Below are positions 5,086 to 36,433 of a stretch of 39,247 bases of DNA, one piece after another; position 1 is the stretch's first letter; the number at the start of each line of letters is the position of its first letter. The stretch is from a virus (taxonomy: Duplodnaviria; Caudoviricetes): IMG/VR virus record IMGVR_UViG_3300031565_000136, positions 1-39,247 of that record. One strand, given 5' to 3'. The notes under the pieces were generated by a model. It had not been told where the DNA came from. It worked only from the letters and a program-made list of their open reading frames with translations, and ran no database searches. Position numbers and translations under genes: made by a program.

Positions 5086-5303
5086 CACAGTAGCCCACGG
5101 GGCGAGCGTGGGCTACCAGGACCAGGGCGATGTGGGGCCGTGCTGGGCCGGCCCTCTTGGAAAGTCAGCGGCCCCAGCGCCGCAGGTGAGGCCCAGACAA
5201 CCCAGTCAACGGTGAGTTTGCGGGTTCGTGGCCTTCAACCTTACAGAGATCATACCACATTTTTCGGAATCTGCACCAACGACTTTTGGGAAAGGAACAT
5301 CAC

Positions 5304-5762
5304 ATGGCAAGAGACTGGGAAGGGCGGTACTGGTCCAAGATAGATATACGCGGAGAAGATGAATGCTGGCCCTGGAAAGCCGTGCAGCACAGGCAGGGCT
5401 ATGGGCGATTCAGGCTGGGCAGGCGCATGGTTTTGGCTCACCGGATCGCATGGGAGCTAGAGCATGGGCCGATACCTGAAGGCATGTGCGTTTGCCATAC
5501 ATGCGACAATCCGCGATGTGTCAATCCAGCCCACTTGTTTGCGGCGAGCCAGCTTGAGAATATCGCAGATGCGGTGGAAAAGGGACGACGCGCGAATCGG
5601 CGTGGCGAAAAGAACGGCCGTGCCAAACTAACGGAAGAGAAAGTCCGCGAGATCCGCAGGCTTTACACCACCGGCAGGCATTCGCAGAGAGAATTGGGTG
5701 AGCGGTTTGGTGTGATAGAGTCCCACGTGGGCCGCATTGTGCGCCGGGAAGTTTGGCCCTAG
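5304..5762 (+). CDS. HNH endonuclease (HNH_3-like) with C-terminal HTH
   Basis: ECWPW, GYGRF, AHRIAW, VCHTCDNPRCVNPAHL, ENIAD; AKLTEEKVREIR...SQRELGERFGV; AAAGGA RBS. Confidence 0.9.
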   Translation: MARDWEGRYWSKIDIRGEDECWPWKAVQHRQGYGRFRLGRRMVLAHRIAWELEHGPIPEGMCVCHTCDNPRCVNPAHLFAASQLENIADAVEKGRRANRRGEKNGRAKLTEEKVREIRRLYTTGRHSQRELGERFGVIESHVGRIVRREVWP

Positions 5763-9110: not shown

Positions 9111-9139
9111 TTGACACGGCAGAGGAATCGTGATATGAT
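9111..9139 (+). promoter_or_regulatory. sigma70-type promoter for replication operon
   Basis: TTGACA (9111-9116), 17 bp, TG-n-TATGAT (9134-9139). Confidence 0.85.
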
Positions 9140-9147
9140 CTGGACAA

Positions 9148-9300
9148 GCCTAGACCAAGAGTGTGCGGGGACTTTTCCGTCTCCGGTCACAATCCCATAC
9201 GCATGTGGGCAAAGGTCCCCATATCGCACACGTGGACGCAAGTCCCCGTCTCTTGGTCTAGGCAACCGGAGACACGTGTCGCGGTATGGGGTCTTTTGCG
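9148..9300 (+). ncRNA. structured leader RNA with competing long-range pairings (c4/CI-like candidate)
   Basis: 14-bp perfect stem 9148-9161/9250-9263, 9-bp stem 9166-9174/9240-9248, loop segments complementary to 9265-9299. Confidence 0.65.
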
Positions 9301-9313
9301 TTTGGGAGGAATT

Positions 9314-10120
9314 ATGGCGCGTGCACCAAGGCGAGGTAGAGTGAACCTTCTCTGCCAGCATTGCGGCAAGACATATAATGTCGTTGCCAGCCGCCAACAC
9401 CATAGCAAGTATTGCTCCAAGGAATGCCAAGACAATGCCGCTAGCCTCGGCGAAACGAGGGCATGTCTCATTTGTGGCACATCCTTTTACGTTCCCCGCT
9501 GGAAGATAGAAAAGGATGTCGGGCACTATTGCTCCTCCGAGTGCTTTGGAAAGGCGTCTCGCAAACGTATAGAGGCAAAATGCATTCAGTGCCATCACAC
9601 CTATATCATCATAGAGAGCAAGCAAGACGCGACCAGGTTCTGTAGCCGGGAATGCCAGGCAACATGGCAATCTGAGAACTGGACAGGATCAAACTCCCCG
9701 CACTGGGGCGGCAGAGAGCAGGAATGCGCATGGTGCGGCAAGATATATCTTGTCGGCAAGTGGAAAGCCGACAATGGTCTATCCCGTTTTTGTAGTCGAG
9801 AGTGCTATGGGCGTTGGCGCTCCCAAGAGTTATGCGGGGAAAACAGCAATCAGTGGAAGGGCGGACGTGCAGAGTATTATGGTCCAAACTGGTACAAGCA
9901 GCGGGCAAAGGCACGGCGCCGCGACAAGTTCACTTGTCAGAGATGCGGTATCCACCAACAAGATTGTGACCAAGCCCTATCTGTTCACCACATCAAGCCA
10001 TTCTGTGAGTTCGGCTATGTGCCTGGAGAGAACGAAAACTATCGGGAAGCAAATAGACTGGACAACCTTGTATCGTTCTGCCAACCGTGCCATATGCAAG
10101 AGGAACATGCACTAGCTTAA
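9314..10120 (+). CDS. HNH endonuclease with four N-terminal Zn-finger repeats
   Basis: GGGAGG RBS; four CxxC...(Y/F)CSxEC repeats; RRRDKFTCQRCG...VHHIKPF...NRLDNLVSFCQPCH. Confidence 0.9.
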   Translation: MARAPRRGRVNLLCQHCGKTYNVVASRQHHSKYCSKECQDNAASLGETRACLICGTSFYVPRWKIEKDVGHYCSSECFGKASRKRIEAKCIQCHHTYIIIESKQDATRFCSRECQATWQSENWTGSNSPHWGGREQECAWCGKIYLVGKWKADNGLSRFCSRECYGRWRSQELCGENSNQWKGGRAEYYGPNWYKQRAKARRRDKFTCQRCGIHQQDCDQALSVHHIKPFCEFGYVPGENENYREANRLDNLVSFCQPCHMQEEHALA

Positions 10121-10151: not shown

Positions 10152-11084
10152 ATGGAATTAGCATCAATTGAGGAAGCCGTCGCGCTGGCGCAACGACGCT
10201 GGCCGGGGCTTGAACTCAGAATCAAGAATCACCATGAGGCGAATGGCCCTTGTCCTATCTGCCACAAAGCAGAAACAGACGGGTTCGTGTTGTTCGAAGA
10301 CGGAGGCTATTTCTGTCGACCAGGCGACCATACGGGATGGCTTGACGAGGAAGATAACAGGCTCTCGGCAGAGGAGCGGCGCCTACTGTGGATAGAAGCA
10401 GAGGCGCGCCGCGCCAGACGGGAGCGCGAACAGATGCAGCGCCAGCTTACCGCACTCGAACGGATGCTGGAATGCACGGACCACATCAAGTATCACAAAC
10501 TGCTCGACGACTCCGACCGGGAATGGTGGCATTCGCAAGGCATCTATGATTCGGCGATAGACGAGTACAAACTCGGCGTGTGCTACAACTGCCCGACCGC
10601 TCCCCGCCAAGCGTCTTATACTATCCCCGTTTTTGACAGCACATGGACCAAGCTGCTCAATATCCGCCATCGACTGATAGACGCTACCAATGGTGATCGC
10701 TACCGACCACACATGGCGGGGCTGCCCGGGAAGCTGCTTTTCAATGCCCGGTGGACCAAAGAACATGACACGCTCCTGGTGGTGGAGGGAGAGAAAAAGA
10801 GTATCGTCGTAAGTTCGCATGTTATGCCGGCGGTGGGCATTCTTGGCGCATCTGGCTTTGACATGCGCTGGCTACCCCACTTTGAGAATGTCAAGCGGCT
10901 ATACGTGGCACTTGATCCAGATGTGCAGGATAAGGCCATGGCATTGGGCAAAGAGATTGCTACCAAGAGCAAGATGGACGTGCGTGTCTGTACATTCCCG
11001 GTAAAGCCAGACGACTTCTTTCTCAAGGGAGGCAAGCCCAAGGAGTTCGCGGATTTTGTCAAGTGGGCCAAGGTGGTGAACTGA
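10152..11084 (+). CDS. DNA primase (Zn-binding + TOPRIM)
   Basis: GPCPIC..DGF...FCR; YTIPV; LLVVEGEKK; YVALDPD; KPDD. Confidence 0.85.
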   Translation: MELASIEEAVALAQRRWPGLELRIKNHHEANGPCPICHKAETDGFVLFEDGGYFCRPGDHTGWLDEEDNRLSAEERRLLWIEAEARRARREREQMQRQLTALERMLECTDHIKYHKLLDDSDREWWHSQGIYDSAIDEYKLGVCYNCPTAPRQASYTIPVFDSTWTKLLNIRHRLIDATNGDRYRPHMAGLPGKLLFNARWTKEHDTLLVVEGEKKSIVVSSHVMPAVGILGASGFDMRWLPHFENVKRLYVALDPDVQDKAMALGKEIATKSKMDVRVCTFPVKPDDFFLKGGKPKEFADFVKWAKVVN

Positions 11085-11224
11085 TGCCCCCGAAGTTGCC
11101 GCCAAAAAACGTATGGGATTTGTTCAGACGCTGCGTGCTGGGCATCACAGATGCTCAGATGCGGGGCTATGCGCTTCAGCTTATGATACGAAGACGTAAG
11201 GAACAGGGGCGAGACAGTGGCTAA
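11084..11224 (+). CDS. 46-aa hypothetical protein
   Basis: TGATG-coupled ORF filling gap between primase and initiator. Confidence 0.45.
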   Translation: MPPKLPPKNVWDLFRRCVLGITDAQMRGYALQLMIRRRKEQGRDSG

Positions 11225-12164
11225 CTTTACGACCGAGATGGGGAACTTTACTCCCCTATTCGACGTGGTGATCCAAACTGTGGGCGTGGTAGGCGCTAGC
11301 GTCTATGGGCGCGTATGGCGCTATTGCCAGGGCGAGCGCGGCGTGTGCCAAGCGTCGATGGACACGATAGCGAACGAACTGGGCATGAGCCGGCAGACGG
11401 TAGTGCGGTGGCTCGGGAAGCTATGTGATGTCGGCTATCTGGAAGACACCACACCAGGATTGCGCAACCGACCACATACTTACCGTGACACCGGCAAGGT
11501 GCAGATCCAGGTACGTCTGGATGCTGTAACAGAGAGTGACACCCCCGATTCCACTGTAACAGAAAGTAGCAGTGCTGTAACAGAAAGTGACTCTCACTGT
11601 AACAGAAAGTCACATGAAGAGAGAAAGAAGAGAGAAGGTAAGAGAGAAGAAGACGACGCTTCCGCGTCGGTTCCTCCTGGCGATCTTGATGAGATAGACT
11701 GGCACGATGGGAGTGAGGGGATACCCGATAACGGTGACGCGGAGAAGTTCAAGCAGACGGGCGACATCGTGTTGGATATCGTGGCCGCCAGTGACCTGCA
11801 CAAGAAACGTGGCATACCAGACTGGGCCATGCTTGGCGCTGAGGGATTGCACCCCGTCTTCCCGGTGGTGAAGGCGTTTTGTGAGTTGACGGGGCAAGAC
11901 GCAATGTCGCTGAAGAAAACGCAAGGGCAAGGGTGGCTGAAGCAATTCGAGAAACTGGGGGGGGAGCATAGCGTGTCTGTCAAGCAGCTTCTGCAGGCAC
12001 ACGAAGTGCTGCCGGACAAAGAGTGGGGCGAATGGCACCTACAACACCACAAGTGGAATACGCCCTTCCAAGACAGCTATGTGGACATGCTTACTTACGC
12101 GGCGCGACAGATACGCGACGGGACACTAGAGACAGGCAGCAAGGTGATAAGGATACGCAATTGA
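11217..12164 (+). CDS. phage replication initiator (N-terminal winged HTH, lambda O-like layout)
   Basis: CQASMDTIANELGMSRQTVVRWLGKLCDVGYL; internal iterons; precedes helicase. Confidence 0.8.
   Translation: MANFTTEMGNFTPLFDVVIQTVGVVGASVYGRVWRYCQGERGVCQASMDTIANELGMSRQTVVRWLGKLCDVGYLEDTTPGLRNRPHTYRDTGKVQIQVRLDAVTESDTPDSTVTESSSAVTESDSHCNRKSHEERKKREGKREEDDASASVPPGDLDEIDWHDGSEGIPDNGDAEKFKQTGDIVLDIVAASDLHKKRGIPDWAMLGAEGLHPVFPVVKAFCELTGQDAMSLKKTQGQGWLKQFEKLGGEHSVSVKQLLQAHEVLPDKEWGEWHLQHHKWNTPFQDSYVDMLTYAARQIRDGTLETGSKVIRIRN
11524..11652 (+). repeat. probable replication origin: four 17-bp iterons plus purine tract
   Basis: CTGTAACAGA(A/G)AGTnnC at 11524, 11554, 11575, 11597, followed by A/G-rich run. 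Confidence 0.85.
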
Positions 12165-13123
12165 TGATCGACTACAGCCAGCTCGTACACTCACCCGCAG
12201 AACTGGCAGCGGAACAAGTGGCCTGGGCCAAGCACCTGAAGGATGCACCCGGCGTGCCATTCGGCATCCCGGCGGTGGATGCCAAGGTGATCCCCTTTCA
12301 CCCGGGCGACATGGTGGTGTTCGTGGCACGACCAGGGCATGGAAAAACATCGATGCTGGCCTACCTTGCACGGGCGGAGGCCAGGCGCATCCAGATGCGG
12401 GGTACGGTAGATACCGAGGCGGTGGTGTATGTGACGTGGGAACAGGTCACGGAGGAAATCAATGCTGTCCTTGACGTGAGCGAGAACTACACAGTGAGCG
12501 ATCTCGCCTGGGGTAAGGTGGACCTCGATATGGTAGAGCGCCAAGCGATGAAGCGGGCGGGCATGCCGATCTGGATTATCGGCGATAGCTTGGCCCGCAC
12601 CAATGCCAAGTCGCCGCGCATGTATCCAGATGCGGTGTTCGCCGCCATTGAAAGCATGGCTGACGATTACGGTGTGCGCCCGACGCTGATGTGCTTTGAC
12701 TACATTCAGCTTATCCCCATCCCTACGCAGGCCGACCGGATGAAGCAGGTAACAGAGGCCGCGCACCGCTGCAAAGAACTTGCGAAGCGTGTTGGATGCC
12801 CGGCTGCCGTGGCGGTCCAGGCGCGGCGAGAGGTAGACAGCCGCGAGAACAAGACGCCCGGCCTGTGGGATGCACAATGGGCCAGCAGCATCGAACAGAC
12901 GGCCGACAAGTATTTCAGCCTGTGGCGTCCTTGGCTCACCGAGCCCCGTGAGGGGATTGTGGACATTGACGGGCGCCAACTTCCCGTGACTGAGGGCCTG
13001 CTGATCATGAGCATGCAGAAGCAGCGATTTGAGAATGGACGTTGGACGTGGCCGCTATGGTTCCAGCCGCAATACCTCAAGCTGTGTGAGCTGGAGCTGA
13101 GAGTTGACAAGCTCAACTTCTAG
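12164..13123 (+). CDS. DnaB-like replicative helicase (C-terminal ATPase domain only)
   Basis: ARPGHGKT Walker A, FDYIQLI, KELAK, IEQTAD, KQR; TGATG coupling. Confidence 0.9.
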   Translation: MIDYSQLVHSPAELAAEQVAWAKHLKDAPGVPFGIPAVDAKVIPFHPGDMVVFVARPGHGKTSMLAYLARAEARRIQMRGTVDTEAVVYVTWEQVTEEINAVLDVSENYTVSDLAWGKVDLDMVERQAMKRAGMPIWIIGDSLARTNAKSPRMYPDAVFAAIESMADDYGVRPTLMCFDYIQLIPIPTQADRMKQVTEAAHRCKELAKRVGCPAAVAVQARREVDSRENKTPGLWDAQWASSIEQTADKYFSLWRPWLTEPREGIVDIDGRQLPVTEGLLIMSMQKQRFENGRWTWPLWFQPQYLKLCELELRVDKLNF

Positions 13124-35650: not shown

Positions 35651-36433
35651 TCACCAATCGTCCGCAATAGTCTTCTTGCGGGGCAAGTATACGGAGCAGT
35701 TTTGATAAAGACATCGGGCAACATTGCGAGAGGTTCTGGTGTCACACCACAGACGGAATATACCAGGCCCGCGCCCTATAGAGACAGCCGCACTGGGCCT
35801 AAGGGCAAGGACAAAAGAGCGGAATTGCATGAGCAGGGGCTCTGTTCCGCAAAGCCTCAGGGAGGGATATTTTCCCTTGGCCATGAACAGACATCCGTCT
35901 CCGTCTACGAGGCCTCGCCAGAAGTGGCGATTAGCGTCCAGTTGGCGCACATATCCGGATGCGGATTTACTAGCGGTTATTCCAAACTGTGAAAGCGCGG
36001 AGACAAGATGCTTGGAGCGAACCTGATAGCGAGCCTTCGGCTTGGTACTGAATGAATCAGTTCTAGAACAGCTCGTTATCTTATGGCCCGACTTGAGGAA
36101 TACACGGAATCGTTCAAGGTGTGCTTGGTCTTCCGACGAAAGTTCCACAGAAATGCATGGAGAATGGCCATCTTGATAGCTAATGCAACCATCGGCCATA
36201 AGAAATCCGGCCCAGTAAGCGGACTCTTCAGTGATGTTGTCAAAGACTGACTCATCGAGCGGCATTGTGCGAGCTGGTCCCTGCGGACGCCTGGGAATAT
36301 CGCGGCGTTTGAGCAGGCCCAATATGGCCTTGTGCGTAACACCATAACGGGCAGCCAAAATGCCGGATGAATCACCTTGGCGGTATTCGGAAATCATCTG
36401 TTGTACCTGTTCGCGTGTAAGATGCTTGGCCAT
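35651..36433 (-). CDS. free-standing LAGLIDADG homing endonuclease with N-terminal HTH
   Basis: AYWAGFLMADGCI and HFWRGLVDGDGCL motifs; SSGILAARYGVTHKAI HTH; GGGAG RBS; visibly lower GC. Confidence 0.9.
   Translation of the reverse strand: MAKHLTREQVQQMISEYRQGDSSGILAARYGVTHKAILGLLKRRDIPRRPQGPARTMPLDESVFDNITEESAYWAGFLMADGCISYQDGHSPCISVELSSEDQAHLERFRVFLKSGHKITSCSRTDSFSTKPKARYQVRSKHLVSALSQFGITASKSASGYVRQLDANRHFWRGLVDGDGCLFMAKGKYPSLRLCGTEPLLMQFRSFVLALRPSAAVSIGRGPGIFRLWCDTRTSRNVARCLYQNCSVYLPRKKTIADDW

What the first reader, a model, noticed from the sequence alone, without database searches (positions are those of the whole stretch)
9140..9313. Candidate RNA-based immunity/attenuation switch (P1 c4 / P4 CI-like architecture) gating the replication operon
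Seen: right after a strong promoter, an outer helix (9148-61/9250-63 perfect 14 bp; 9166-74/9240-48 9 bp) encloses GTCTCCGGT (9179-87, complementary to 9265-73), a small hairpin (9194-9209) and segment B (9209-34). B is complementary both to downstream 9273-99 and to upstream 9161-76, which are degenerate direct repeats of each other. The downstream target ends in a U-rich run abutting the RBS. Known: P4 CI (seqA/B/C) and P1 c4 RNAs have an antisense core flanked by upstream and downstream targets and cause premature termination. Inference: an analogous, possibly undescribed RNA controlling HNH-primase-initiator-helicase; alternatively an RNA partner of the adjacent Zn-finger HNH.
Basis: partly seen in the sequence, partly recalled or inferred. 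Interest (0 to 1): 0.85.

Follow-up and report, generated by a model that had tools for sequence, protein, structure and literature searches.

The report
Two-state phage leader RNA switch family
Between a strong promoter and this phage's DNA-replication genes lies a folded leader, shared in layout but not in letters by related uncultured phages, that carries two segments matching the sequence right behind it; it likely works as a transcription stop switch, probably flipped by free copies of the same RNA, as in the RNA immunity of phages P4 and P1, but with a different wiring.

Summary
The helices are real: 0 of 2000 shuffles match them, and Rfam has no hit. The leader is a discrete module. It recurs at 97-100% identity before unrelated genes, and its outer helix P1 carries 4 compensatory changes. 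I found 18 members on 13 phage records with one layout: promoter, P1/P2 stalk (mostly GCUNAG...CUNAGC-AAC/G), loop segments a and b, then a*, b* and a U-run. The a/b letters are mostly private to each copy. Closed (P1) and terminator (b:b*) folds are near-equal in energy, and the closed fold forms first. Best reading (0.5): read-through by default, termination imposed by free stalk-closed copies. A cis or protein-controlled attenuator (0.3) is not excluded. It is not a C4/CI member: the pairing order is crossed, there is no upstream leader, and the upstream target holds in only 5 of 16. No integrase was found, so lysogenic immunity is doubtful. An HNH-partner role is unlikely. The scan has noted many C4-like leaders on other DNA; e1-3264389 may be this same architecture (unverified). 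No expression data.

The parts
9111..9139 (+). sigma-70-type promoter TTGACA-17-TATGAT with extended -10; transcription start inferred at about 9146-9148
   Evidence: 11 of 12 consensus match; start site inferred from spacing
9148..9161 (+). P1 5' arm of the closing stalk
   Evidence: 4 compensatory changes and 1 wobble change in L239
9165..9174 (+).
   Evidence: pairing with b better than all 200 shuffles here, but significant in only 5 of 16 members
9173..9176 (+). early U-run after the G-rich P2 strand
   Evidence: sequence; 5 or more T of 8 in 13 of 18 members
9179..9187 (+). loop segment a (predicted toehold)
   Evidence: 9 bp with 9265-73; a:a* significant in 12 of 18 members
9194..9209 (+). 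small hairpin P3; its 5' strand repeats the core of b and can also pair with b*
   Evidence: not a family-wide feature (short members lack it)
9209..9234 (+). loop segment b (5' arm of the predicted terminator)
9240..9263 (+). P2' and P1' (3' arm of the stalk); predicted 3' end of a 116-nt stalk-closed RNA 9148-9263
   Evidence: processing inferred, not shown
9264..9266 (+). conserved AAC/AAG directly after P1
   Evidence: 18 of 18 members; required by the search for most of them, not required for window, L239, L128, L130, L432 (found), G406 third copy and G005 second copy
9265..9273 (+). target a*
9273..9299 (+). target b* (3' arm of the predicted terminator)
   Evidence: the L239 change turns the U.U mismatch into U.G
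9292..9303 (+). late U-rich run, predicted termination site
   Evidence: sequence; 5 or more T of 8 in 16 of 18 members; conservation among close relatives ends at 9302
9304..9316 (+). ribosome-binding site GGGAGG and ATG at 9314
9314..10120 (+). Zn-finger-repeat HNH endonuclease gene (first gene of the operon; exchangeable)
   Evidence: Pfam PF01844 E 2e-4, PHROG 1271 E 5e-29
10152..13123 (+). primase (10152-11084), HTH replication initiator (11217-12164), DnaB-like helicase (to 13123)

Best explanation
The leader is a two-state RNA that likely acts as a transcription attenuator, probably switched off by free, stalk-closed copies of itself. Step 1 (computed): as the RNA is made, the P1/P2 stalk closes before the targets exist and holds segments a and b in a closed loop, so the b:b* terminator helix does not form in time and polymerase reads into the operon. 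Step 2 (inferred): transcripts are trimmed or cut just behind P1, at the conserved C-AAC/G, which gives a stable 70-117-nt RNA (116 nt here) without its own targets. Step 3 (inferred): this RNA docks on a new transcript through a:a* as a* emerges, then b pairs with b* up to the U-run. It supplies in trans the missing 5' arm of an intrinsic terminator, and in some members it also blocks the ribosome-binding site. Result (inferred): negative feedback on early or replication operons, and exclusion of a second phage with the same code.
For: Shown: a module with sharp borders, 9147/8-9302, at 97-100% identity before different promoters and genes in 6 of 7 runs laid and in L239. P1 covaries while a/b stay fixed. 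18 members on 13 records keep P1, b:b* (11-23 bp) and mostly a:a* (12 of 18 significant) with unrelated letters. Features left out of the searches came along: the top 8 promoter-free hits all sit 6-8 nt behind a -10-like box, and 12 of 13 pattern hits with P1 of 8 bp or more have a -10 match of 5/6 or better, against 0 of 32 with shorter P1. G.U outnumbers A.C 25 to 1 in b helices, so pairing is on the transcribed strand. Computed: P1 forms with p about 1.0 on completion in 18 of 18; closed and open folds lie within 10 kcal/mol in 17 of 18; the nested-path barrier is 27-49 kcal/mol. Precedent: C4 is followed 3 nt later by target a2, and CI is cut from the leader it terminates (passages of PMC4825925, PMC10111431). 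Termination by an oligonucleotide pairing just upstream of a U-tract is recalled knowledge, from no call.
Against: Nothing shows the small RNA, processing or termination. No second target exists elsewhere in the genomes for 15 copies tested, apart from the sibling copy in G003, so every target is in cis. By my rough length estimate (no call), a:a* could form in cis as a pseudoknot, and the barrier ignores pseudoknotted strand displacement. Pairing more than one helical turn into a closed loop is as hard in trans as in cis. No integrase (0 of 10 records), resolvase, recombinase or ParA (0 of 5 each) was found, so a lysogen that needs immunity is not evident. U-runs are weak or absent in 2 of 18 members (L416, G406 third copy), and a is not significant in 6 of 18 (absent in L425). 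P1 ends stay alike among copies with different codes, which fits a shared protein regulator equally well.
Confidence: 0.5

Rival explanations
1. A cis-only attenuator: P1/P2 is the antiterminator and a:a* plus b:b* is a pseudoknotted terminator. The choice is set by polymerase speed, by pausing at the early U-run, or by a host or phage protein that binds the conserved P1 end shared by all copies.
For: Near-equal energies; no orphan targets; P1 ends alike while codes differ among 2-3 copies per record; no integration genes; a is never longer than one helical turn (5-10 bp).
Against: High refolding barrier (an upper bound). Terminator loops of 30-53 nt are unlike ordinary intrinsic terminators. 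The a/b code is frozen among window, L239 and run contigs while P1 changes, which free cis drift does not predict.
Confidence: 0.3
2. Terminated transcripts (open fold) expose P2'/P1'. These pair in trans with the first 20-25 nt of a new transcript, stop it at the early U-run or prevent its stalk from closing, and so propagate the OFF fold without any processing.
For: A G-rich strand followed by a U-run, whose only complement lies downstream, in 13 of 18 members; P1 and b:b* exclude each other.
Against: The early U-run is missing in 5 of 18 members and only four U long here. It may be just a linker or pause. Window and L239 would be mutually blind despite identical a/b.
Confidence: 0.08
3. The main output is translational: b:b* (cis or trans) blocks ribosome loading on the first gene, often a potentially toxic nuclease.
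For: Here b* ends 5 nt before the Shine-Dalgarno site; b* covers it in L416 and abuts it in L418. A free-standing nuclease is the first annotated gene in 6 of 16 members.
Against: In most members the start codon lies 20-30 nt or more beyond b*, and a U-run, not the ribosome-binding site, is the constant neighbour.
Confidence: 0.08
4. The RNA is a guide or partner of the adjacent Zn-finger HNH nuclease.
For: Adjacency in this window; HNH or T5orf172 genes come first in 6 of 16 members.
Against: The near-identical leader precedes a T5orf172-domain gene in L239 and other starts in six runs. No member turned up among loci of HNH relatives. The nucleases belong to unrelated families, and the complementary sequence is the RNA's own tail.
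Confidence: 0.02

Closest known systems
Satellite phage P4 CI RNA with seqA/seqC (passages of PMC4825925 and PMC10111431; record NC_001609)
   Same: A small stalk-closed RNA lies in the leader of the operon it controls; a two-part target follows closely; premature termination ahead of replication genes.
   Different: CI pairs in nested order (3' bulge with the near target, 5' loop with the far one); here the order is crossed. CI has an upstream leader with seqA and two hairpins on the stalk; here the RNA starts at the promoter and b pairs over 11-23 bp up to a U-run. No Rfam match, and trans action is untested here.
Phage P1/P7 C4 antisense RNA (Rfam RF01695; a1/b1 and a2/b2; record NC_005856; passages of PMC5320573)
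   Same: About 70-80-nt stalk-closed RNA (short members), first target a few nt after the stalk (3 nt in P1, 1-8 nt here), two short variable recognition segments.
   Different: C4 has b' (37-44) before a' (51-57), so pairing is nested; it starts with GGU after RNase P cleavage of a leader over 100 nt; it represses icd translation. Here the start is mostly GCUNAG at the promoter, there is no icd/ant, and a U-run follows the target.
Antisense-driven attenuators of plasmids pT181/pIP501 (recalled, no call)
   Same: A trans RNA forces a terminator ahead of a replication gene.
   Different: Their RNA is made from the opposite strand. No minus-strand promoter was found here (best match 8 of 12; 10 of 12 in only 2 of 16 members).
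HK022 put RNA and protein-controlled antiterminator leaders (recalled, no call)
   Same: Promoter-proximal structured RNA, several copies per phage, next to U-rich tracts.
   Different: No private a/b code matching a downstream target is known to me for put; there is no Rfam match.

Membership tests
C4 / c4-2 / c4-a1b1 (Rfam) | match to the covariance models | tested here: not met
   0 hits at gathering score in the window and 13 relative loci; only chance or unrelated hits at relaxed E-value
C4 and P4 CI | nested pairing order of the two recognition segments | tested here: not met
   nested in P1 and P4 records; crossed here, and the nested alternative scores lower than a in all 18 members; only the excluded L116 is nested
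C4 and P4 CI | upstream leader with a separate target (a1b1, seqA) and 5' processing at GGU by RNase P | tested here: not met
   P1 starts 6-8 nt after the -10 box; the internal upstream match is significant in 5 of 16; starts are GCUNAG in 13 of 18
C4 and P4 CI | two-part target just downstream of a stalk-closed small RNA | tested here: met
   a* begins 1-8 nt after P1; b* pairs over 11-23 bp
C4 and P4 CI | stable processed RNA that acts in trans | not testable with these tools
   needs RNA data or experiment
C4 and P4 CI | lysogenic immunity context (prophage, icd/kil/ant genes) | tested here: not met
   no integrase in 10 records, no resolvase, recombinase or ParA in 5 (three judged complete); no icd/ant-type hit among downstream genes scanned; the own record is incomplete
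Intrinsic terminator / attenuator | GC-rich helix followed by a U-tract, with a competing helix | tested here: inconclusive
   U-run in 16 of 18 and competing P1 in all, but the loop is 30-53 nt, the terminator scan did not call this site, and termination is unmeasured
HEARO / omega-RNA type nuclease partner | Rfam match and fixed linkage to one nuclease family | tested here: not met
Counter-transcribed plasmid antisense attenuator | promoter on the opposite strand | tested here: not met
   (consensus scans only)

The most novel reading that the evidence does not exclude
A natural family of split intrinsic terminators. The phage leader locks the 5' arm of its own terminator in a closed ring and is stopped only when another copy of the same RNA supplies that arm in trans, possibly with terminated transcripts templating the OFF fold on new ones through a second, permuted terminator at the early U-run. 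Each operon carries a private code, giving orthogonal, protein-free feedback loops (up to three per genome) in apparently non-integrating phages.
Probability: 0.25. Interest if true: 0.85.

Novelty: new variant of a known kind. Interest (0 to 1): 0.63.

Why it matters
Trans-RNA-triggered termination is documented for a few enterobacterial temperate phages. This family has a different topology and occurs in apparently non-integrating environmental phages, often in 2-3 copies per genome with mostly separate codes. Its consensus promoter makes the cis-versus-trans question directly testable with E. coli polymerase. If trans action holds, it is a ready set of compact, orthogonal RNA repressors and a protein-free way for phages to time early genes or exclude kin. 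If it is cis, it is still an uncatalogued multi-copy attenuator with a conserved stalk end that points to an unknown factor.

Tried and rejected
Rfam: nothing relevant. BLASTN against annotated phages: 5 chance hits. Exact-pattern scans: P2 pattern, 95 viral loci, only the own phage real; b pattern, 14 loci, only the own phage; metagenome pattern, 6 loci, of which 1 true homolog (L239), 1 own phage and 4 unrelated; genome collection, 0. Strict pattern in 401 genomes of the class of G001: not found in those searched. Covariance model R1 (10 short members) finds its training set and weakly G005's second copy and L128, but not the window or L239. Its hits in 4 of 151 class and 2 of 151 phylum genomes lack promoter and a/b code and were rejected. 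Dropped before the count of 18: L400/L430 (imperfect b), L421 (no -10 box), L116 (nested order), L112 and L113 (unclear), L429 (looks like a tRNA), L442, L246. Orphan targets: none above background. A leader peptide was rejected: L239 has a 1-nt deletion and a stop where the window's frame runs on. My early claim that cis a:a* is sterically impossible was withdrawn after a rough linker estimate. One search used a mis-registered structure string and was replaced. Literature: searches found no description of this family. The supplement of PMC5737381 and files 1, 2 and 4 of PMC10690425 could not be searched and may list it as a candidate.

Full report
Setting. The window is a 39-kb phage contig (terminase, portal, capsid) and the only contig of G000. 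An identical viral record (L001, 0 differences over 8804 bases) extends it by about 9.4 kb and adds a LexA-type DNA-binding gene and an HTH gene. The host is uncertain. The closest DnaB relative in the genome collection lies on a contig of an Anaerolineae assembly (50% identity, L319), possibly a binned phage, so a Chloroflexota host is only a lead.

Observation. Folding growing transcripts gives a rod 9148-9263 first; once 9302 is reached, the b:b* fold wins. Rfam has no match.

A discrete module. Laying 7 public runs showed contigs in 6 that match parts of 9147-9309 with 0-4 differences and then continue into different sequence; X9 and X10 also begin behind different -10 boxes. These contigs are shallow (depth 2-4.5). 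L239 gives a full homolog: same core, different promoter spacer, then a T5orf172-domain gene, an initiator and a DnaC-like loader. Its P1 has 4 two-sided changes and 1 one-sided change, all paired, and the one change in b* improves pairing. With two sequences the tool's shuffle control is weak (34 of 500). The leader therefore does not belong to the HNH.

A family. Loci of primase and DnaB relatives were searched with descriptors. With promoter and U-run required, 5 of 152 promoters in related phages passed, against 0 of 348 elsewhere; the descriptor was tuned after seeing some hits, so this is partly circular. Without the promoter, 12 of 113 candidate stalks passed. The top 8 (scores 74-106) all sit 6-8 nt behind a -10-like box. 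Shuffled loci gave 4 hits (60-74), and the first 170 of the other loci gave 12 hits (best 71). A fresh viral scan specifying only the -35 box and the stalk ends gave 45 loci. Of 13 with P1 of 8 bp or more, 12 have a -10 match of 5/6 or better and 13 pair loop with downstream sequence better than 95 of 100 shuffles; of the 32 others, none has such a -10 and 4 pass the pairing test. Two of the 13 were re-finds and one a duplicate. Scanning 10 whole records plus the own phage added two copies with AAC after P1 although that was not required. After dropping the doubtful cases listed under Tried and rejected, 18 members on 13 records remain, 70-117 nt from P1 to P1. They start GCUNAG in 13, are followed by AAC or AAG in 18, have b:b* of 11-23 bp, and show significant a:a* in 12. 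G406 has three copies; G003, G005 and G405 have two. The codes are mostly private: b pairs best with its own target except in the G003 pair, which cross-pairs (-22.9 against -22.2 kcal/mol), and between window and L239. G.U pairs outnumber A.C 25 to 1 on the b diagonals of 16 members (helices were picked allowing G.U, so this is biased upward). First downstream genes vary: a nuclease in 6 of 16, replication genes within the first ORFs in 6 of 16, and methyltransferase, PHROG 4652 or unknown genes in others.

How it likely works. P1 and b:b* cross, so they compete. P1 forms as soon as it is complete in 18 of 18. With the polymerase placed at the late U-run, the two folds lie within 10 kcal/mol in 17 of 18 (window -70.2 against -64.8), and the nested refolding barrier is 27-49 kcal/mol, an upper bound. 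A U-run follows the GC-rich core of b* in 16 of 18 (the position was chosen by looking for T, so this is generous). These are computed or seen. Inferred: read-through is the kinetic default, and the OFF state needs help. I favour help from a free stalk-closed copy, docking by a and completing the terminator by b (0.5). The reasons are the P4/P1 precedent, the conserved stalk end that looks like a processing mark, the high barrier, and a code that stays frozen while P1 changes. Against this, no target exists outside the leaders (15 copies), a cis pseudoknot is not excluded, long pairing into a closed loop is awkward in trans too, and no integration or partition genes were found (0 of 10, 0 of 5, 0 of 5 and 0 of 5). 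Feedback timing or superinfection exclusion is therefore more apt than prophage immunity. A cis or protein-controlled attenuator gets 0.3. A second U-run after the P2 5' strand (13 of 18) has its complement only downstream, which suggests a permuted, trans-only terminator (0.08); it may equally be a linker.

Comparison. In the P1 record, C4 (77 nt) is followed after 3 nt by a2 and then b2. In C4, b' precedes a', and a 79-nt P4 CI candidate (coordinates recalled) shows the same nested order. Here a precedes b and a* precedes b*, a crossed order. So it may work like CI, but it is not a C4/CI member.

Papers: PMC5320573, PMC4825925, PMC10111431 and PMC5737381 were seen as passages. PMC2864571 was seen as a search listing and supplement passages. 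For PMC10690425 I saw the abstract, the outline and a term search of 6 supplementary files (no hit; 3 files not searched). pT181/pIP501, put and oligonucleotide-induced termination are recalled. Nine searches found no description of this family. Earlier findings of the scan list many C4/CI-like leaders, none alike by sequence; e1-3264389 describes a possibly identical architecture that I could not compare.

Verdict. A real, uncatalogued, well-supported RNA family. An attenuator function is likely, and the trans mechanism is plausible but unproven. New variant of a known kind; interest 0.63.

Noticed in passing
L445:125-1385 (record G004, beyond the window's right end): Gene with a LexA DNA-binding domain (PF01726) facing away from an HTH_3 gene, in a phage with no integrase found; a possible protein-level switch beside the RNA one.
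   Followed up: partly
window 35651-36433 (-) and 5286-5762 (+): A LAGLIDADG-like endonuclease gene on the opposite strand inside the structural module, and a second free-standing HNH gene in the early region.
   Followed up: no
L135, L422, L423, L424 directly downstream of the leader; also L121 upstream of the primase: Low-complexity tracts of short GC-rich repeats, giving Arg/Gly/Ala-rich open frames; next to PHROG 4652 genes in L422 and L424, and to similar-looking, unscanned genes in L423 and L121. Function unclear.
   Followed up: no
L116:1693-1867: Promoter-proximal 75-nt stalk with two segments matching downstream sequence in nested (C4-like) order plus a U-run, ahead of a helicase-methyltransferase gene; a sister or convergent design.
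   Followed up: partly
L400:157-231 and L421 (minus strand, P1 at 524 of the reverse complement): Borderline members: a long P1 with the family's ends, but imperfect b (L400) or no -10 box (L421, ahead of an initiator and DnaB).
   Followed up: partly
L429: The stalk-end pattern also hit what looks like a tRNA gene, so the P1 end resembles a tRNA acceptor stem plus discriminator A; a possible clue to the processing enzyme.
   Followed up: no
window 9192-9200: The 5' strand of hairpin P3 repeats the core of b and pairs with b* over 9 bp; the long form may have arisen by internal duplication.
   Followed up: partly
L236, L237, L238, L241: Four metagenome contigs share a conserved hairpin-containing non-coding stretch ahead of a conserved Cys-rich ORF and a long downstream ORF; unrelated to this leader.
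   Followed up: no
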